A stretch of 64,000 bases of DNA from an uncultured Candidatus Saccharibacteria bacterium (GCA_964623775.1 CAZUVH010000001.1:155745-219744), one strand, 5' to 3'. Positions 35,293-55,257 are shown, numbered from the stretch's first letter. Numbers and translations: made by a program. The notes: generated by a model not told the origin, from the letters alone.

Positions 35293-35321
35293 TTGACAAT
35301 CTATATATAGAAGACTATACT
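35293..35321 (+). promoter_or_regulatory. sigma70-type promoter TTGACA-17-TATACT
   Basis: Exact -35 and a near-consensus -10 with a 17-nt spacer. Confidence 0.6.
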
Positions 35322-35855
35322 CCCCCCTACATATGGTAATTACGTCTAGTCGAAAGAAGCGGCAAAAGTAGCCTGTCTCACGACTCGCTGCCCAAGGCCG
35401 CTACTAAGCGGCTTTTTTCGTGAAAACCATATTGTTGCTCGTTGAAAACTGAAGAGCGAAAAACAAAAATAAACTTCGATCCGAAAGGGTCGAAGACAAT
35501 CAACAATGTTCCATCAGGTTCTCCATGCGAACAGCATGAAGGTCTTTCCTGGTGGAGCACAGGAAATTGTATCGTTGCATTGCAACGATGCGTTTGGTTC
35601 GCTCGGTCGACATGAAAGTAAAACTTTCCTGCGACCTCGCTGCCAAACGTAAAATAACCAAAGCAAAGTAGGTTCGCCGCACCTATTCAAAAAAGTGGAA
35701 GTCTTGCCGTTAGACAGCGGTGAGCACAAAAGGTTTTTCTGCACCTTTTTCCGCCCAAGGCGGATCCGCCTATGGCGGACAAAAAAGCGGGAGAAAACAA
35801 AGTCTCGTCACCTAGACAGTGACGAGCAATACGCGGTTCTTAGAATTCCTAGAGG

Positions 35856-38815
35856 GAGTTCTGAGTAAGGGCGTGTGGTGGATGCCTTGACTGAAGAAGG
35901 CGATGAAGGACGCGGCTTAGCTGCGATAAGCTCCGGTAAGATGCCAAGCAATCGTTATACCCGGAGATTTCCGAATGGGGTAACCCCGTAGAATAAACTT
36001 CTATGACCTTTCACTTAAACGATGAAAGGAGCAGACCTTGGGAAGTGAAACATCTCAGTACCAAGAGGAAAAGAGACCAATAGGTATTCCCTTAGTAGCG
36101 GCGAGCGAAACGGGAAAAGCACAAACTCAGCCACAATAATGCCGCGTGACGAAAGTCGCGAAGCGTTATTGGGGATGGGGGTTATAAGGCTACAGCGCTG
36201 GCAACAGGTAGAGTAAAAAAATGCTTAGATAGAGGAATCATCTGGGAAGATGAGCTCCAAAGGGTAATAGCCCCGTACTCGAAATCAAAGCATCTCTATG
36301 GCTGTAGTTCTTGAGTAACTCGAGACACGAATAGCTCGGGTGAATTCGTCAGGACTAACTGATAATGCTACATACTTCTTCAGATCGATAGTGAACAAGT
36401 ACCGTGAGGGAAAGGTGAAAAGAACCCCGGTGAGGGGAGTGAAATAGAACTGAAACCACATGTCTACAAGGAGTTGAAGAGGTGCTTGCACCTCGACAGC
36501 GTGCCTATTGAAGAATGAGCCAACGAGTTGATGCAAACGGCTTGGATAAGTGCGATGAGCATGGATCCGTAGCGAAAGCGAGTGTGAATAGCGCGTTTGT
36601 CGTTTGTATCAGACCCGAAGCAACGTGAGCTACCCATGAGCAGGTTGAACTTCGTAGAAATACGGAGGGAGGACCGAACCCATAGATTGTGCAACATCTC
36701 GGGATGACTTGTGGGTTGGAGTGAAAAGCTTACCGAACGTTGTAATAGCTGGTTCTCTCCGAAAGAGCTTTCGGGCTTGCGTCGTATGTTCCCTTTGGGG
36801 GTAGAGCACTGGAAGGTCCCGACAGGTCGAAAGACCGCAGGACCTATCAAACTCCGAATACCAAAGGCCAGAGTACGGCAGTTAGACCGTGGGGGCGAAG
36901 CTCCACCGGTCACAAGGGAAACAGCCCAGATCGCCATCTAAGGTCCCTAAATTATAGCTAAGTGCAAATAAGGAGGTGAGATTTCTCAGACAGTCAGGAT
37001 GTTGGCTTAGAAGCAGCCACCATTCAAAGAAAGCGTAACAGCTCACTGACTTAGAGATCTTGCGCCACAAATGATCGGGGCTAAGCTATATACCGAAGAT
37101 GCGGATTTAAAATTTCGAAAGAAATATTAAGTGGTAGGAGAGCGTTTTACGTGCGATGAAGCCAAAGGGGTGACCCATGGTGGAGCGCGTGGAAGTGAAA
37201 ATGTTGGCACGAGTAACCGCAATGCGGGTGAGATTCCCGCACGCCGAAAGAACGAGGTTTCCTTCGCAATGGAGATCAACGAAGGGTTAGTCGGTCCTAA
37301 GCCGATGGCGAATGCCGGAGGCGATGGAAGCACGGTTAATATTCCGTGACTTCTGTATAGAGTGATGGAGGGACGGAGGGTTGTACTACAGGCCCCTTAT
37401 TGGATTGGGGTCCATGGTGTGATTGTGGCAGGTAGGTAAATCCGCCTGCGTAATGAGAGCACAGTGGAGAATTGGAGATTCGTCAAAGAAAATCTGTAGG
37501 AGCACGCTTCCAAGAAAAACTTCTAAACTCATCTATATAGAAACCGTACCGCAAACCGACACAGGTGTTCTGGTCGAGTAGACTAAGGCGAACGAGTGAG
37601 AGATCCCCAAGGAACTCGGCAAAAAAGCGGCCGTAAGTTAGCGATAAGGTCCGCCACCCTTGTGGTGGCCGCAGTTAAAATTTCCCAACCGACTGTTTAT
37701 CAAAAACACAGCTCCCTGCAAACTCGTAAGAGGAAGTATAGGGGGTGATGCCTGACCAATGCCGGAAGGTCAAGTGAGGTCGGTCTTATGCAGCAATGCA
37801 TATTGCTGGCACTTCATAAGCCCCGGTCAATGTCGGCGATAACTATAATCGTCCTAAGGTAGCGAAATTCCTTGTCTGGTAAGTTCAGACGCGCACGAAT
37901 GGTATAACGAGTTGGGAACTGTCTCGGGGATTTGCTCGGTGAAAATACAAGGGCGGTGAAGATGCCGCCTTCCTGCAGCTAGACGAAAAGACCCCAGAAG
38001 CTTTACTGTAATTTGGTATTGGATATACGGGTGCACCGCGTAGCGTAGGTGGGAGACTTTGAAGCAGTGGTTTCGGCCGCTGTGGAGTCGCCAATGCAAC
38101 ACCACCCCTTGTTTCTGTATATTCTAACTTCTCTTGAGAAACAGGAGAAAGACAGTACCTGATGGACAGTTTCGGTGGGGCGCTGTCCTCCTAAAAAGTA
38201 ACGGAGGAGCCTATTATGGTCGCCTAGGCGCGAATGGAAACCGTGCCGATAGTGTAATGGCAAAAGGCGGCTTGACTGTGAGTCGTACATGACAAACAGG
38301 CGCGAAAGCGGAGCATAGTGAACCGACCGCCCGCATTAGATGCGGCGGAAGATTAACGGATAAAAGTTACTCTGGGGATAACAGGCTGGTATTGCCTAAG
38401 AGTCCAAATCGACGGCAATGTTCGGCACCTCGATGTCGGCTCATCTTATCCTGGGGCTGGAGAAGGTCCCAAGGGTTTGGCTGTTCGCCAATTAAAAAGG
38501 TACGTGAGCTGGGTTCAAACCGTCGTGAGACAGGTTGGTCTTAATCTGCTGTAGGCGTTGATTCTTGAGGAGATTCTTCATTAGTACGAGAGGACCGTGA
38601 AGAGCTGACCTCTGGTCTGGGGGCTGTACCGCCAGGTGCACCGCCCCGTAGCTATGTCAGTATTCGGATAACCGCTGAAAGCATCTAAGCGGGAAGCCAA
38701 CTCCAAGATTAGGAATCGTTATAGGGTCGTGAGAGATGATCACGTTGATAGGCATTAGGTGGAAGCACAGTAATGTGTTGAGCCGAGATGTACTAATACC
38801 CCGACAGAACTCTCT
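35856..38815 (+). rRNA. rrl: 23S ribosomal RNA
   Basis: 5' ggtggatgccttgactgaagaaggcgatgaaggacg, conserved domains throughout, and a 3' end ...gtactaataccccgac. Confidence 0.9.
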
Positions 38816-38921
38816 AAAGGAATTTTGGGAGTCGCGTAATTGTTTTCAAAAATTATTTTTGTGTTTCGCCTTCAGTTTTCAGCGAACAAATCGCTGATCT
38901 TTGGATATTCGAATGTTTTGT

Positions 38922-53098: not shown

Positions 53099-53570
53099 CC
53101 TTTGACCATCGCTCCTGATGGCTTGTCTGCGGGTCACTCGACCTACTACATACTGAACCCCCAAAAGGGAGGAGCATGGTGCCGATGTATGCTTACGCAA
53201 AACTCGGATAGAACCTTGAAAACTGAATATCAATTCGTATCAAATTCTGTAGCGGAATTTGGTATGAAAAGCAATGCAAAATTAGATGGAATTAATTCCA
53301 TCTGGTAAGCATCACACAAGCAACCAAGTAATAAAGTAATTAAGAAATTGAATTTCTAAAGAAATTCAATGCTGTCAGCGCTCGCTCGGTAATGAAAGTA
53401 AACTTTCATTCCGCTCGCTCGCTAGACAGACAAACAGTACTGCGTTCAATAATCCGTTGAACGTAGAGGAAAAAAGACCGATGAAAATCGGACATTCTTT
53501 TGTTCCGTCCAATCCTAAGATAAGAGCTCAAAACTCATGTATCGGGTGATCCCCTAAAAAGGTAATCACT

Positions 53571-55027
53571 TTTACTGAGAGTTTGATCCTAGCTCAGGGT
53601 GAATGCTGGCGGTATGGATAAGGCATGCAAGTCGAATGGGTTTAGACCCATGGCAGACGAGGTAGTAACACGTAGGAACGTACCCGGAAGTCGGGCATAA
53701 CCAGCCGAAAGGTTGGATAATTCCCGATGGTCTCGCAAGAGTAAAGATTTATCGCTTCCGGAGCGGCCTGCGTTGTATCACGCTAGTTGGTGAGGTAATG
53801 GCTCACCAAGGCTATGACGCATAGGGGACCTGAGAGGGTGACCCCCACCGATGAAACTGAGACACGGTTCATACCCCTACGGGGGGCTGCAGCCGAGAAT
53901 ATTCGACAATGGGCGAAAGCCTGATCGAGCGATACCGCGTGGTGGATGAAGTGCTTCGGCACGTAAACACCTTTTATGGAGGAGGAAGTCATTGACGTTA
54001 CTCCATGAATAAGGGGCTCCTAACTCTGTGCCAGCAGGAGCGGTAATACAGAGGCCCCAAGCATTACCCGGAATTACTGGGCGTAAAGAGTGCGTAGGTG
54101 GTCGTGTTAGTCGTTTGTTAAAAACCCGGGCCTAACCCGGGGAGTGCGAGCGAAACGGCACGACTAGAGGGAGTGAGAGGTGAATGGAACTCATGGTGTA
54201 GGGGTGAAATCCGTTGATATCATGGGGAACACCGAAAGCGAAGGCAATTCACTGGCACTTTCCTGACACTCAAGCACGAAAGCGTGGGTAGCGAACGGGA
54301 TTAGATACCCCGGTAGTCCACGCCCTAAACTATGTCAACTGGCTTTCCGGAGTATCGACCCTCTGGGAGGCGAAGCTAACGCGTTAAGTTGACCGCCTGG
54401 GTAGTACGGTCGCAAGACTAAAACTCAAAGGAATAGACGGGGGCTTGCACAAGTGGTGGAGCGTGTGGCTCAATTCGTCGCTAAGCGAAGAACCTTACCC
54501 AGACTAGAAATCCTACTGCACGTCTAGCGAAAGCTAGAAAGCCTTCGAGGGTGTAGGACAGGTGATGCATGGCTGTCGTCAGTTCGTGGTTTGAATCGTT
54601 CCCTTCAGTGGGGTAACGAACGCAACCCTCGTTGCCTGTTATATTTGTCAGGCGAGACTGCCCCCTCACGGGGGAGGAAGGTGAGGATGACGCCAAGTCA
54701 GCATGTCCCTCTGATGTCTGGGGCTGCACACGCGCTACAATCGCCGTTACAAAGGGGCGCAATACCGTAAGGTGGAGCAAATCCTTAAAAGCGGCGCCAG
54801 TTCGGATTGAGGGCTGCAACTCGCCCTCATGAAGCCGGAATCACTAGTAATCGTGGGTCAGCCACACCACGGTGAATACGTTCTCAAGCCTTGTACTCAC
54901 CGCCCGTCAAGTCAGGGAAGTTGGGAGTGCCCAAAGCCGACTCTTGTAGTCGTCCAAGGCAAACTCAATGACAAAGACTAAGTCGTAACAAGGCACGGGT
55001 AGCGGAAGCTGCTCGTGGAATCATTTC
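53571..55027 (+). rRNA. rrs: 16S ribosomal RNA (divergent: 530-loop variant; 3' end without CCUCC)
   Basis: 5' gagtttgatcctagctcag ... attagataccc ... ccgcccgtca ... aagtcgtaacaagg. Confidence 0.88.
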
Positions 55028-55224
55028 AAACGAAAGGTTTCGCGATTCGTCGTCGAAATCGTTTGTCGATTCGAATGGCTCAATTGACCATTCGACGAGT
55101 AATCACATTCAACTCAGAATGATGTGTGACACATGGGAAAGACCATGGGAAATGGACGGAACAAAAGAGTGTTAAAAAACTGTTAGCTGTGTGAAAGTAC
55201 AATCGATATTCAGAATTCAAAAGC

Positions 55225-55257
55225 AAAGGCCGCCCGAGAGGGCGGTCTTTGCATTTT
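55225..55257 (+). terminator. terminator after 16S
   Basis: aaaggccgcccgagagggcggtcttt followed by gcatttt. Confidence 0.65.

What the first reader, a model, noticed from the sequence alone, without database searches (positions are those of the whole stretch)
35293..55257. Unlinked rRNA genes: the 23S-5S unit and the 16S unit are independent transcription units 14.5 kb apart
The 23S (35856-38815) and 5S (38922-39027) genes sit behind a TTGACA-17-TATACT promoter at 35293 and end with a terminator at 39044. The 16S (53571-55027) lies downstream on the same strand, behind its own TTGACT-17-TATACT promoter at 53070 and its own terminator at 55225. Fifteen or more protein genes (SEDS, glycan cluster, folD, secDF and others) lie between the two units. 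The order 23S-5S...16S with no ITS tRNAs departs from the canonical rrn operon. Unlinked rRNA is reported mainly in slow-growing, small-genome or host-associated lineages.
Basis: partly seen in the sequence, partly recalled or inferred. Interest (0 to 1): 0.55.

Follow-up and report, generated by a model that had tools for sequence, protein, structure and literature searches.

The report
Split rRNA genes in a Patescibacteria genome
The 23S-5S and 16S ribosomal RNA genes really are two separate transcription units 14.5 kb apart, but the organism is a Parcubacteria-type ultrasmall bacterium (Patescibacteria/CPR), a group in which split rRNA genes are already documented, so this is an ordinary example of a known peculiarity.

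Summary
Rfam places the 23S at 35855-38815, the 5S at 38922-39027 and the 16S at 53571-55030, all on the + strand. About 17 protein genes fill the 14,543-nt gap, four of them on the opposite strand.

The interpretation, two independent units, is well supported but not shown by RNA data.
- Each unit has a sigma-70-like promoter that is conserved in relatives.
- Both leaders carry the same boxA-like motif at the same distance from the promoter.
- Each rRNA is bracketed by its own processing helix, and each unit ends in a terminator hairpin.
- Independent metagenome contigs, 100% identical to the window, tile 5S to 16S, which rules out misassembly.

The 16S places the organism in Patescibacteria, class Paceibacteria, near Ca. 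Kaiserbacteria.
- None of 59 relatives has a 23S within at least 1.5 kb after the 16S.
- None of 46 has a 16S within at least 1.5 kb before the 23S.
- The layout 23S-5S-RodA...SecDF-16S recurs in relatives.

Brewer et al. already list Patescibacteria among clades with unlinked rRNA, so novelty is low.

Side observations:
- The 16S lacks the anti-Shine-Dalgarno sequence; this is known for a Parcubacteria subgroup.
- GGAG motifs still peak at -12 to -7 before start codons.
- tRNA-Ile(GAU) trails the 16S as a likely relic of the old spacer.

The parts
35293..35321 (+). Promoter of the 23S-5S unit: TTGACA, 17 nt, TATACT
   Evidence: 11/12 match. 56/96 related 23S leaders carry TTGACN-16..18-TANMMT within 650 nt upstream, against 0.031 per 650 nt in control sequence. 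The -35 is TTGACA in 44/56 relatives, as here.
35322..35854 (+). 23S leader (about 530 nt). It holds the boxA-like TTGAAAACTGAA at 35442-35453 and a hairpin element at 35599-35628.
   Evidence: both elements are shared, in the same order and at the same distance from the -10, with the 16S leader (best local score 35 against 20 +/- 2 in shuffles). In related 23S leaders TTGAWAAYT sits mostly about 100-175 nt (median 126) after the -10. L229 has the identical CTCGTTGAAAACTGAAGAGC.
35830..35850 (+). 5' strand of the 23S processing helix; pairs with 38818-38838
   Evidence: 21-nt helix, score 18.5 against 8.8 +/- 1.4 in shuffles (max 16). The cross-control with the 16S trailer is at background.
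35855..38815 (+). 23S rRNA gene, intron-free
   Evidence: RF02541, 2440 bits, model positions 1-2925. Eight of ten relatives score 2385-2494 bits (overall range 1988-2817).
38818..38838 (+). 3' strand of the 23S processing helix, in the 23S-5S spacer
38906..38920 (+). 5' strand of the 5S flanking helix; pairs with 39028-39042
   Evidence: 15-nt helix, score 13 against 8.2 +/- 1.2 in shuffles (max 12.5).
38922..39027 (+). 5S rRNA gene (106 nt)
   Evidence: RF00001, 77 bits. The 5S follows the 23S on the same strand in 10/10 relatives.
39046..39075 (+). Terminator hairpin ending the 23S-5S unit
   Evidence: GAAACAGCCCCGCC-UUU-GGCGGGGCUGUUUC, -29 kcal/mol. One search lists the inner stem. L059 has an equivalent hairpin plus T-run after its 5S.
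39089..52140 (.). Intervening protein genes: 80-aa, 256-aa, RodA/FtsW, GT4 (-), Bac_transf, 340-aa, epimerase, FolD, 201-aa (-), 296-aa (-), SecD, SecF, transglutaminase-like, 158-aa (-). Three small ORFs follow, up to 53027.
   Evidence: Pfam; independent gene calls. The core (256-aa, RodA, GT, Bac_transf, SecD, SecF) lies between the 5S and the 16S in L059 and after the 5S in L144, L241 and L223.
53034..53058 (+). Terminator hairpin that insulates the 16S unit from upstream genes
   Evidence: perfect 11-bp inverted repeat AAAAGCCCCGC/GCGGGGCTTTT. (-18.5 kcal/mol).
53070..53098 (+). Promoter of the 16S unit: TTGACT, 17 nt, TATACT
   Evidence: 10/12 match. 70/89 related 16S leaders match the promoter pattern, against 0.015 per 650 nt in control sequence. 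The -35 is TTGACT in 40/70 relatives, as here.
53099..53570 (+). 16S leader (about 470 nt). It holds the boxA-like TTGAAAACTGAA at 53216-53227 and a hairpin element at 53382-53407.
   Evidence: L078 keeps the hairpin with different stem bases between the same CGCTCGCTCGG flanks.
53491..53511 (+). 5' strand of the 16S processing helix; pairs with 55153-55173
   Evidence: 21-nt helix, score 20 against 9.1 +/- 1.3 in shuffles (max 15).
53571..55030 (+). 16S rRNA gene (1460 nt) without the anti-Shine-Dalgarno CCUCC
   Evidence: 1369.5 bits. (tail GGAAUCAUUUCAAA against consensus GGAUCACCUCCUUU).
55153..55173 (+). 3' strand of the 16S processing helix, in the trailer
55223..55252 (+). Terminator hairpin ending the 16S unit
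   Evidence: GCAAAGGCCGCCC-GAGA-GGGCGGUCUUUGC followed by AUUUU, -27 kcal/mol.
59945..60019 (+). tRNA-Ile(GAU), a probable relic of the ancestral 16S-23S spacer, now 4.9 kb after the 16S
   Evidence: tRNA-Ile(GAU) lies downstream of the 16S in 32/59 relatives, 27 of them on the same strand, at a median 0.78 kb.

Best explanation
The window comes from a Patescibacteria (CPR) bacterium of the class Paceibacteria ('Parcubacteria'), close to Candidatus Kaiserbacteria. Its rRNA genes are organised as two separately transcribed units on the same strand.

**Unit 1** is promoter, a roughly 530-nt leader, 23S, a 106-nt spacer, 5S and a terminator.

**Unit 2** lies 14.5 kb downstream. It is terminator, promoter, a roughly 470-nt leader, 16S, a roughly 190-nt trailer and a terminator.

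**How it works.** Each rRNA is excised from its own precursor through a helix formed by its own flanking sequences. Balanced output of the two units is probably achieved by near-identical promoters and by shared leader elements. These are a boxA-like TTGAAAACTGAA about 117-120 nt after the -10, and a hairpin about 280 nt after it.

**Conservation.** The arrangement is ancestral to the clade. Relatives keep the block (MscS-like protein)-23S-5S-(256-aa protein)-RodA-...-SecD-SecF-16S-(tRNA-Ile).

**What is shown:** gene positions, contiguity, the motifs and helices, and their conservation.

**What is inferred:** that the promoters fire, that the hairpins terminate, that the motif acts in antitermination, and that the genome has no further rRNA copies.
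For: - **Positions:**
- **Taxon:** the 16S variant GTGCCAGCAGGAGCGGTAATAC hits at least 120 GTDB species, almost all labelled Patescibacteria, Paceibacterota or Parcubacteria. The best 16S matches are 92.5% (L091), 91% (L078), 90.4% (L018) and 89.8% (L040, Ca. Kaiserbacteria).
- **Unlinked in relatives:** there is no 23S in 120 16S-anchored loci by blastn, except for L059, which has the same permuted layout. Of these, 59 have at least 1.5 kb, 45 at least 3 kb and 26 at least 5 kb after the 16S. Rfam confirms this in 18/18 loci. No 16S is found in 86 23S-anchored loci, 46 of which have at least 1.5 kb upstream. The 5S follows the 23S in 10/10.
- **Promoters and box motif:** enriched 20- to 50-fold and about 6-fold over control sequence. 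The -35 variant is specific to each unit, as in the window.
- **Shared collinear leader elements:**
- **Processing helices with negative cross-controls:**
- **Terminators:**
- **Opposite-strand genes in the gap:**
- **Independent assemblies:**
- **Same layout in L059** (5S to 16S about 7.2 kb). In L223, L144 and L241. SecF lies upstream of the 16S on the same strand in 26/73 loci.
- **Literature:** Patescibacteria are listed among clades with unlinked rRNA.
Against: - No transcript data are available. Promoter and terminator function are inferred.
- The terminator U-tracts are imperfect, so some read-through from the 5S into the following same-strand genes is possible.
- Promoter-like hexamers at the 10/12 level are not more frequent in the window than in shuffles.
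- The identification of the motif as boxA rests on remembered consensus sequences from other bacteria, and a literature search for the sequence found nothing. The strict motif is seen in only about a quarter of related leaders.
- Only 64 kb of the genome is visible, so a second, linked operon elsewhere cannot be excluded.
Confidence: 0.88

Rival explanations
1. The three rRNA genes are still made from one long precursor, or from read-through transcription, that spans 35.3-55.2 kb. The internal 'promoter' would then be incidental.
For: All three genes are on the same strand. Most intervening genes are also on the + strand. The terminator after the 5S has an interrupted U-tract.
Against: - Four intervening genes are on the minus strand (GT4, 201-aa, 296-aa, 158-aa).
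- Three strong hairpins interrupt the path, at about 39046, 53034 and 55223.
- The 16S promoter is conserved in 70/89 relatives.
- The 16S helix closes on its own flanks.
- In relatives the 16S sits in different neighbourhoods without SecF, yet keeps its promoter.
Confidence: 0.04
2. The layout is an assembly artefact that joins fragments of two rrn operons or of two organisms.
For: rRNA genes are classic break and chimera points in metagenome assemblies.
Against: - Logan contigs from two runs are 100% identical to the window. They overlap to give one path from inside the 5S to 240 nt into the 16S, and another from the 16S 3' end to tRNA-Ile.
- The same gene order occurs in other species (L059, L223, L144, L241).
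- GC content is even across the region.
Confidence: 0.02
3. One or both of the separated genes are decaying leftovers, and a canonical linked operon elsewhere in the genome supplies the ribosomes.
For: Only 64 kb is visible. Brewer et al. describe 'mixed' genomes that have both linked and unlinked copies.
Against: - Both genes are full-length, and their Rfam scores fall in the range seen in relatives: 16S 1369.5 against 1287-1388 bits, 23S 2440 against 2385-2494 in eight of ten (overall 1988-2817).
- Both keep promoters, leader elements and processing helices.
- No relative sampled shows a linked pair.
- From general knowledge, CPR genomes usually hold a single rRNA copy. This was not tested here.
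Confidence: 0.05

Closest known systems
Unlinked rRNA genes of Patescibacteria/CPR as catalogued by Brewer et al., 'Unlinked rRNA genes are widespread among Bacteria and Archaea' (bioRxiv 10.1101/705046)
   Same: The 16S and 23S are more than 1500 bp apart. The trait is conserved across the clade. The lineage has a small genome and is probably symbiotic.
   Different: The parts of the paper that were read gave only linked/unlinked status and distances. Here the anatomy is resolved: same strand, permuted order 23S-5S...16S, a conserved RodA...SecDF cassette between the units, a separate promoter, leader and terminator for each unit, and tRNA-Ile trailing the 16S.
Split rRNA operons of Thermus/Deinococcus, Planctomycetes, Dehalococcoidia, Rickettsiales and Helicobacter (16S apart from 23S-5S)
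   Same: A 23S-5S pair is kept together, the 16S stands alone, and each has its own promoter. The clades come from the list; the unit structure is from general knowledge.
   Different: In those lineages the units are usually tens to hundreds of kb apart (mean distance 410 kb). Here they stay 7-15 kb apart in a conserved local block.
Canonical bacterial rrn operon (16S-tRNA-Ile/Ala-23S-5S) with boxA-dependent antitermination and RNase III processing stems
   Same: Sigma-70-type promoters, a boxA-like leader motif, long-range helices that bracket each rRNA, and tRNA-Ile(GAU) downstream of the 16S.
   Different: There is no common precursor, and the 16S lies downstream of the 23S-5S. The leader elements are duplicated, one set per unit. 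The 16S helix is formed by leader and trailer rather than by leader and spacer.
Anti-SD-less 16S rRNA of a Parcubacteria subgroup (Tsurumaki et al. 2022, RNA 28:1041, PMC9297842)
   Same: The window 16S lacks CCUCC(U), as do 70 of the 75 relatives sampled. The 5S is shortened.
   Different: This is a side feature, not the finding itself. The window still shows a GGAG peak at SD distance. The passages of that paper retrieved do not mention such a peak.

Membership tests
Unlinked rRNA genes (criterion of Brewer et al.) | Distance between the closest 16S and 23S edges greater than 1500 bp | tested here: met
   From 23S end 38815 to 16S start 53571 is 14.8 kb. The order is 23S before 16S. The criterion is quoted.
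Unlinked rRNA genes (criterion of Brewer et al.) | All rRNA copies of the genome are unlinked (status 'unlinked', not 'mixed') | not testable with these tools
   Only the 64-kb window is available. It holds one copy of each gene.
Unlinked rRNA genes (criterion of Brewer et al.) | The trait is phylogenetically conserved in the clade | tested here: met
   None of 59 relatives has a 23S within at least 1.5 kb after the 16S. None of 46 has a 16S within at least 1.5 kb before the 23S.
Independent transcription units | Own promoter upstream of each unit | tested here: met
   Sequence level only. Hexamers are reported. They are conserved in 70/89 and 56/96 relatives, against 0.015-0.031 per 650 nt in controls. 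Activity was not measured.
Independent transcription units | Termination between the units | tested here: inconclusive
   Strong hairpins fold at 39046-39075 and 53034-53058, and minus-strand genes lie in between. The U-tracts are imperfect and there are no RNA data.
Independent transcription units | Separate primary transcripts observed | not testable with these tools
   This needs RNA-seq or 5'-end mapping.
Nus-factor (boxA) rRNA antitermination leader | boxA sequence in the leader downstream of the promoter | tested here: inconclusive
   TTGAAAACTGAA occurs in both leaders at +117/+120. The motif is enriched in related leaders, 22/89 and 23/96 against about 0.04 per 650 nt. Its likeness to the boxA of Gram-positive bacteria is recalled from memory, and a literature search for the sequence found nothing.
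Nus-factor (boxA) rRNA antitermination leader | NusB/NusE binding and antitermination activity | not testable with these tools
   This is biochemical. No nusB or nusG gene was looked for in the window.
Patescibacteria / Paceibacteria (Parcubacteria) | 16S rRNA affiliation | tested here: met
   The signature GTGCCAGCAGGAGCGGTAATAC is shared with at least 120 species, almost all labelled Patescibacteria. The best full-length identities are 89.8-92.5%.
Patescibacteria / Paceibacteria (Parcubacteria) | Reduced ribosome features reported for the group (anti-SD loss, short 5S, uL1 loss) | tested here: inconclusive
   Anti-SD absent. The 5S is 106 nt. uL10-bL12 are present without L11/L1 upstream, but L1 could lie outside the window.

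The most novel reading that the evidence does not exclude
The two units may not simply have drifted apart. In Kaiserbacteria-like Paceibacteria they may form a conserved, permuted 'rRNA super-locus': 23S-5S, an envelope/secretion cassette (RodA, glycan transferases, SecDF), 16S, then tRNA-Ile. Selection could hold this block together at 7-15 kb. It could have arisen by tandem duplication of an rrn operon around the cassette, followed by reciprocal loss of the 16S from one copy and of the 23S-5S from the other. Duplicated promoter and leader modules would then keep the two halves co-regulated. A second unexplained layer is that the same ribosome has lost its anti-SD while about a quarter of genes keep a GGAG at canonical SD spacing.
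Probability: 0.25. Interest if true: 0.45.

Novelty: new member of a known kind. Interest (0 to 1): 0.22.

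Why it matters
For genome annotation and ecology the point is practical. In this large, uncultured group the 16S and 23S cannot be linked by operon-spanning amplicons. rRNA-based binning must also expect the 16S next to secDF and the 23S next to an MscS-like gene.

For biology, the window is a clean and well-supported example of how a cell can keep 16S and 23S-5S output balanced without co-transcription. 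It does so with duplicated promoter and leader modules and self-contained processing helices. None of this changes current understanding, because the phenomenon and its presence in this phylum are published.

Tried and rejected
1. **Exact-protein look-ups.** The look-ups for SecD (longest-ORF start) and for the 233-aa NTP-transferase found nothing. The cause is probably a different start codon. FolD, the 246-aa protein and the 80-aa protein worked.
2. **RNAduplex on long flanks.** It gave sprawling structures that shuffles matched. It was replaced by an ungapped-helix score with shuffles and cross-controls.
3. **Promoter hexamers as evidence on their own.** Rejected, because the window holds 9 matches at 10/12 or better against 7.3 in shuffles.
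4. **Literature confirmation of the boxA sequence.** No paper held CTTTGAAAACT together with boxA.
5. **The shared leader hairpin** (35599/53382). At sequence level it is found only in the closest relative, L078, and not in other relatives.
6. **A rigid 4-bp test for the hairpin after helix 45.** The result was modest: 32/75 against 22.9 +/- 2.8 with permuted partners, and the permutation maximum equals the observed value. Many real cases failed the fixed-register rule. The result is suggestive only.
7. **ARAGORN's tRNA-Glu at 15926-16006.** Rejected as a false positive. Rfam finds no tRNA there even at E <= 1, and the call lies inside an ORF.
8. **One Rfam call on 12 loci failed internally** and was repeated on 10 loci.
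9. **Pseudogene reading.** Rejected because the Rfam scores are in line with those of relatives.

Full report
**1. Observation**

Rfam covariance models place a full-length bacterial 23S at 35855-38815, a 5S at 38922-39027 and a 16S at 53571-55030, all on the + strand. The 5S-to-16S gap is 14,543 nt. No tRNA lies in or next to either unit.

The gap holds about 17 protein genes according to independent gene calls on metagenome contigs. Pfam confirms the following:
- RodA/FtsW (SEDS)
- a GT4 glycosyltransferase on the minus strand
- a Bac_transf sugar transferase
- an NAD-dependent epimerase
- FolD
- SecD and SecF
- a transglutaminase-like protein

Three further ORFs without Pfam matches are also on the minus strand.

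**2. Not an artefact**

Short-read contigs from two public runs (Logan assemblies of SRR12822863 and SRR12816583) are 100% identical to the window. They overlap to give an unbroken path from inside the 5S (38949) to 240 nt into the 16S (53811). A second path runs from the last 39 nt of the 16S (54992) to tRNA-Ile at 59980. The junctions of rRNA genes with protein genes are thus independently assembled.

**3. Organism**

The 16S is highly divergent. It carries GTGCCAGCAGGAGCGGTAATAC in place of the near-universal ...CAGCAGCCGCGG.... That variant occurs in at least 120 GTDB species representatives, nearly all labelled Patescibacteria, Paceibacterota or Parcubacteria. The best full-length identities are 92.5% (L091), 91.0% (L078), 90.4% (L018) and 89.8% (L040, Candidatus Kaiserbacteria). 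The window therefore comes from a CPR bacterium of the class Paceibacteria, near Kaiserbacteria.

**4. Evidence for two transcription units**

- *Promoters.* TTGACA-17-TATACT lies at 35293 and TTGACT-17-TATACT at 53070. Taken alone these are not above chance: the window holds 9 sites at 10/12 or better, against 7.3 in shuffles. The pattern TTGACN-16..18-TANMMT, however, is found within 650 nt upstream of the 16S in 70/89 relatives and upstream of the 23S in 56/96. Control sequence gives 0.015-0.031 matches per 650 nt. Relatives prefer TTGACT before the 16S (40/70) and TTGACA before the 23S (44/56), exactly as in the window.
- *Leaders.* Both are long, about 530 and 470 nt, and share two elements in the same order and at the same distance from the -10. 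One is TTGAAAACTGAA, at +120 and +117. The other is a hairpin element, TCGCTCGGT..ATGAAAGTAAACTTTC, at about +280 (local score 35 against 20 +/- 2 in shuffles). The first motif is enriched in related leaders, 22/89 and 23/96 against about 0.04 per 650 nt. In 23S leaders it sits mostly about 100-175 nt (median 126) after the -10. It resembles the boxA antitermination element of rRNA leaders. That resemblance is from memory and could not be confirmed in the literature.
- *Processing helices.* Each rRNA is bracketed by a helix formed from its own flanks. For the 16S this is 53491-53511 with 55153-55173 (21 nt, score 20 against 9.1 +/- 1.3). For the 23S it is 35830-35850 with 38818-38838 (18.5 against 8.8 +/- 1.4). 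For the 5S it is 38906-38920 with 39028-39042 (13 against 8.2 +/- 1.2). Pairing the 16S leader with the 23S trailer, or the reverse, gives background scores.
- *Terminators.* Stable hairpins fold after the 5S (about 39046-39075, -29 kcal/mol), immediately before the 16S promoter (53034-53058, -18.5) and after the 16S trailer (55223-55252, -27).
- *Opposite-strand genes.* Four genes in the gap are on the minus strand.

Together these make a single 20-kb precursor very unlikely. Transcription itself was not observed.

**5. The arrangement is typical of the lineage**

- None of the 120 16S-anchored loci contains a 23S by blastn, except L059. After the 16S 3' end, 59 loci have at least 1.5 kb, 45 at least 3 kb and 26 at least 5 kb. 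Rfam confirms the absence of LSU in 18/18 loci that have at least 5.7 kb downstream.
- Conversely, 86 metagenome loci anchored on the 23S 5' end contain no 16S. Of these, 46 have at least 1.5 kb and 19 at least 5 kb upstream.
- The 5S follows the 23S in 10/10 loci.
- L059, an 8.1-kb contig of another species, shows the same layout in compact form: 23S end, 5S, terminator, 264-aa protein, RodA, a minus-strand ORF, Bac_transf, SecD, SecF, terminator, TTGACT-16-TATAAT, 16S.
- L223, L144 and L241 carry 23S-5S-256-aa-RodA-...-SecD-SecF up to the contig end.
- SecF lies upstream of the 16S on the same strand in 26/73 loci.
- An MscS-like 230-aa membrane protein (33711-34403) accompanies the 23S in 31 loci.

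**6. Comparison with what is known**

Brewer et al. define 'unlinked' as more than 1500 bp between the 16S and the 23S. They list Patescibacteria among the clades with conserved, exclusively unlinked rRNA genes, and they discuss the symbiotic signature of CPR. The window meets that definition and belongs to that clade. The finding is therefore a new member of a known kind. What the present analysis adds is anatomical detail: same strand, permuted order, a conserved cassette, and duplicated promoter and leader modules.

**7. Side observations**

- *Anti-SD loss.* The 16S tail reads GGAAUCAUUUCAAA where the consensus is GGAUCACCUCCUUU. Of the 75 relatives sampled, 70 also lack CCUCC. Tsurumaki et al. 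2022 already report loss of the anti-SD in a Parcubacteria subgroup that overlaps the uL1-lacking group.
- *GGAG peak.* Even so, GGAG/GAGG peaks sharply at -12 to -7 before ATG starts in the window. That bin holds 14 occurrences, against 0-4 in every other 6-nt bin from -60 to +60. About 10 of 39 genes carry the motif. This is unexplained.
- *Tail hairpin.* The position of the former anti-SD seems to pair with the trailer in a small hairpin. Relatives that retain the anti-SD have CUCCUU-UCU-AAGGAG. Others have UUCA/UGAA, UUCC/GGAA or CUCA/UGAG, and the window has UUUC/GAAA. A rigid permutation test was only modestly positive.
- *tRNA-Ile.* tRNA-Ile(GAU) follows the 16S in 32/59 relatives at a median 0.78 kb, and at 4.9 kb in the window. 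This suggests that the ancestral operon broke after tRNA-Ile.
- *Ribosomal protein genes.* uL10 and bL12 lie at 31860-32736 without L11/L1 upstream.
- *Introns.* Many related 23S genes carry group I introns; the window's 23S does not.

**8. Verdict**

The phenomenon is known for this phylum, so interest is low. The most novel reading still open is a selectively maintained, permuted rRNA super-locus that arose by duplication and reciprocal loss. It rests on synteny alone.

Noticed in passing
window 55017-55040 (16S 3' tail): The 16S lacks the anti-Shine-Dalgarno CCUCC: its tail is GGAAUCAUUUCAAA against the consensus GGAUCACCUCCUUU. Of the 75 related Paceibacteria 16S genes sampled, 70 also lack it. 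This is already reported for a Parcubacteria subgroup by Tsurumaki et al. 2022 (PMC9297842).
   Followed up: yes
window-wide, -12 to -7 upstream of ATG starts (e.g. before 8627, 12329, 16505, 46841-47446(-), 50991, 55629, 56730-57407(-), 57838): GGAG/GAGG motifs peak sharply at canonical SD spacing even though there is no anti-SD. That 6-nt bin holds 14 occurrences, against 0-4 in all other bins, and about 10 of 39 ATG-start genes carry the motif.
   Followed up: partly
window 55024-55036 and the equivalent position in L003-L122: A small hairpin is formed by the former anti-SD position and the first trailer bases. Its stem differs between relatives in a compensatory way: CUCCUU/AAGGAG where the anti-SD is kept, and UUCA/UGAA, UUCC/GGAA, CUCA/UGAG or UUUC/GAAA elsewhere. 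The permutation test is only modestly positive (32/75 against 22.9 +/- 2.8).
   Followed up: partly
window 59945-60019 (+); L-loci: tRNA-Ile(GAU), the classic 16S-23S spacer tRNA, lies downstream of the 16S in 32/59 relatives (27 on the same strand, median 0.78 kb). In the window it is 4.9 kb downstream, with seven genes inserted. In the closest relatives it is 0.7-2.3 kb away.
   Followed up: yes
window 33711-34403 (+), 39369-40139 (+), 40154-41293 (+), 48634-50887 (+): There is conserved synteny around the rRNA genes across Kaiserbacteria-like Paceibacteria. An MscS-TM-like protein lies before the 23S in 31 loci. A 256-aa protein without a Pfam match, plus RodA, lies after the 5S in 7-8 of 10 loci. 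SecD-SecF lie before the 16S in 26/73 loci.
   Followed up: partly
window 35599-35642 and 53378-53424: Both rRNA leaders share a hairpin element (ATGAAAG-TAAA-CTTTCAT) flanked by CGCTCGG / CTCGCT repeats. The closest relative, L078, keeps the flanks but has a different, still self-complementary stem. Its function is unknown.
   Followed up: partly
window 31860-32736 (+): Genes for ribosomal proteins uL10 and bL12 are present, but no L11/L1 genes lie directly upstream; a TPR protein and an unassigned stretch are there instead. This is consistent with, but not proof of, the uL1-lacking Parcubacteria group.
   Followed up: partly
L144 7085-7251, L228 6914-7138, L241 3475-3665; also L174 and L214 (23S spans of 5.1-5.3 kb): Related 23S genes carry group I introns or other large insertions. 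The window's 23S (2961 nt) and 16S (1460 nt) are free of insertions. L144 and L209 also have a tRNA between the 23S and the 5S.
   Followed up: no
window 15926-16006: ARAGORN calls an 81-nt tRNA-Glu with an odd anticodon position. Rfam finds no tRNA there even at E <= 1, and the call lies inside an ORF, so it is a likely false positive.
   Followed up: yes
window 26772-30221 (+): This 1149-aa protein has only a short peptidoglycan-binding domain match. Many other ORFs in the window (for example 39369-40139, 43866-44888, 46841-48436 and 62426-63985) have no Pfam match, as is typical of CPR genomes.
   Followed up: no
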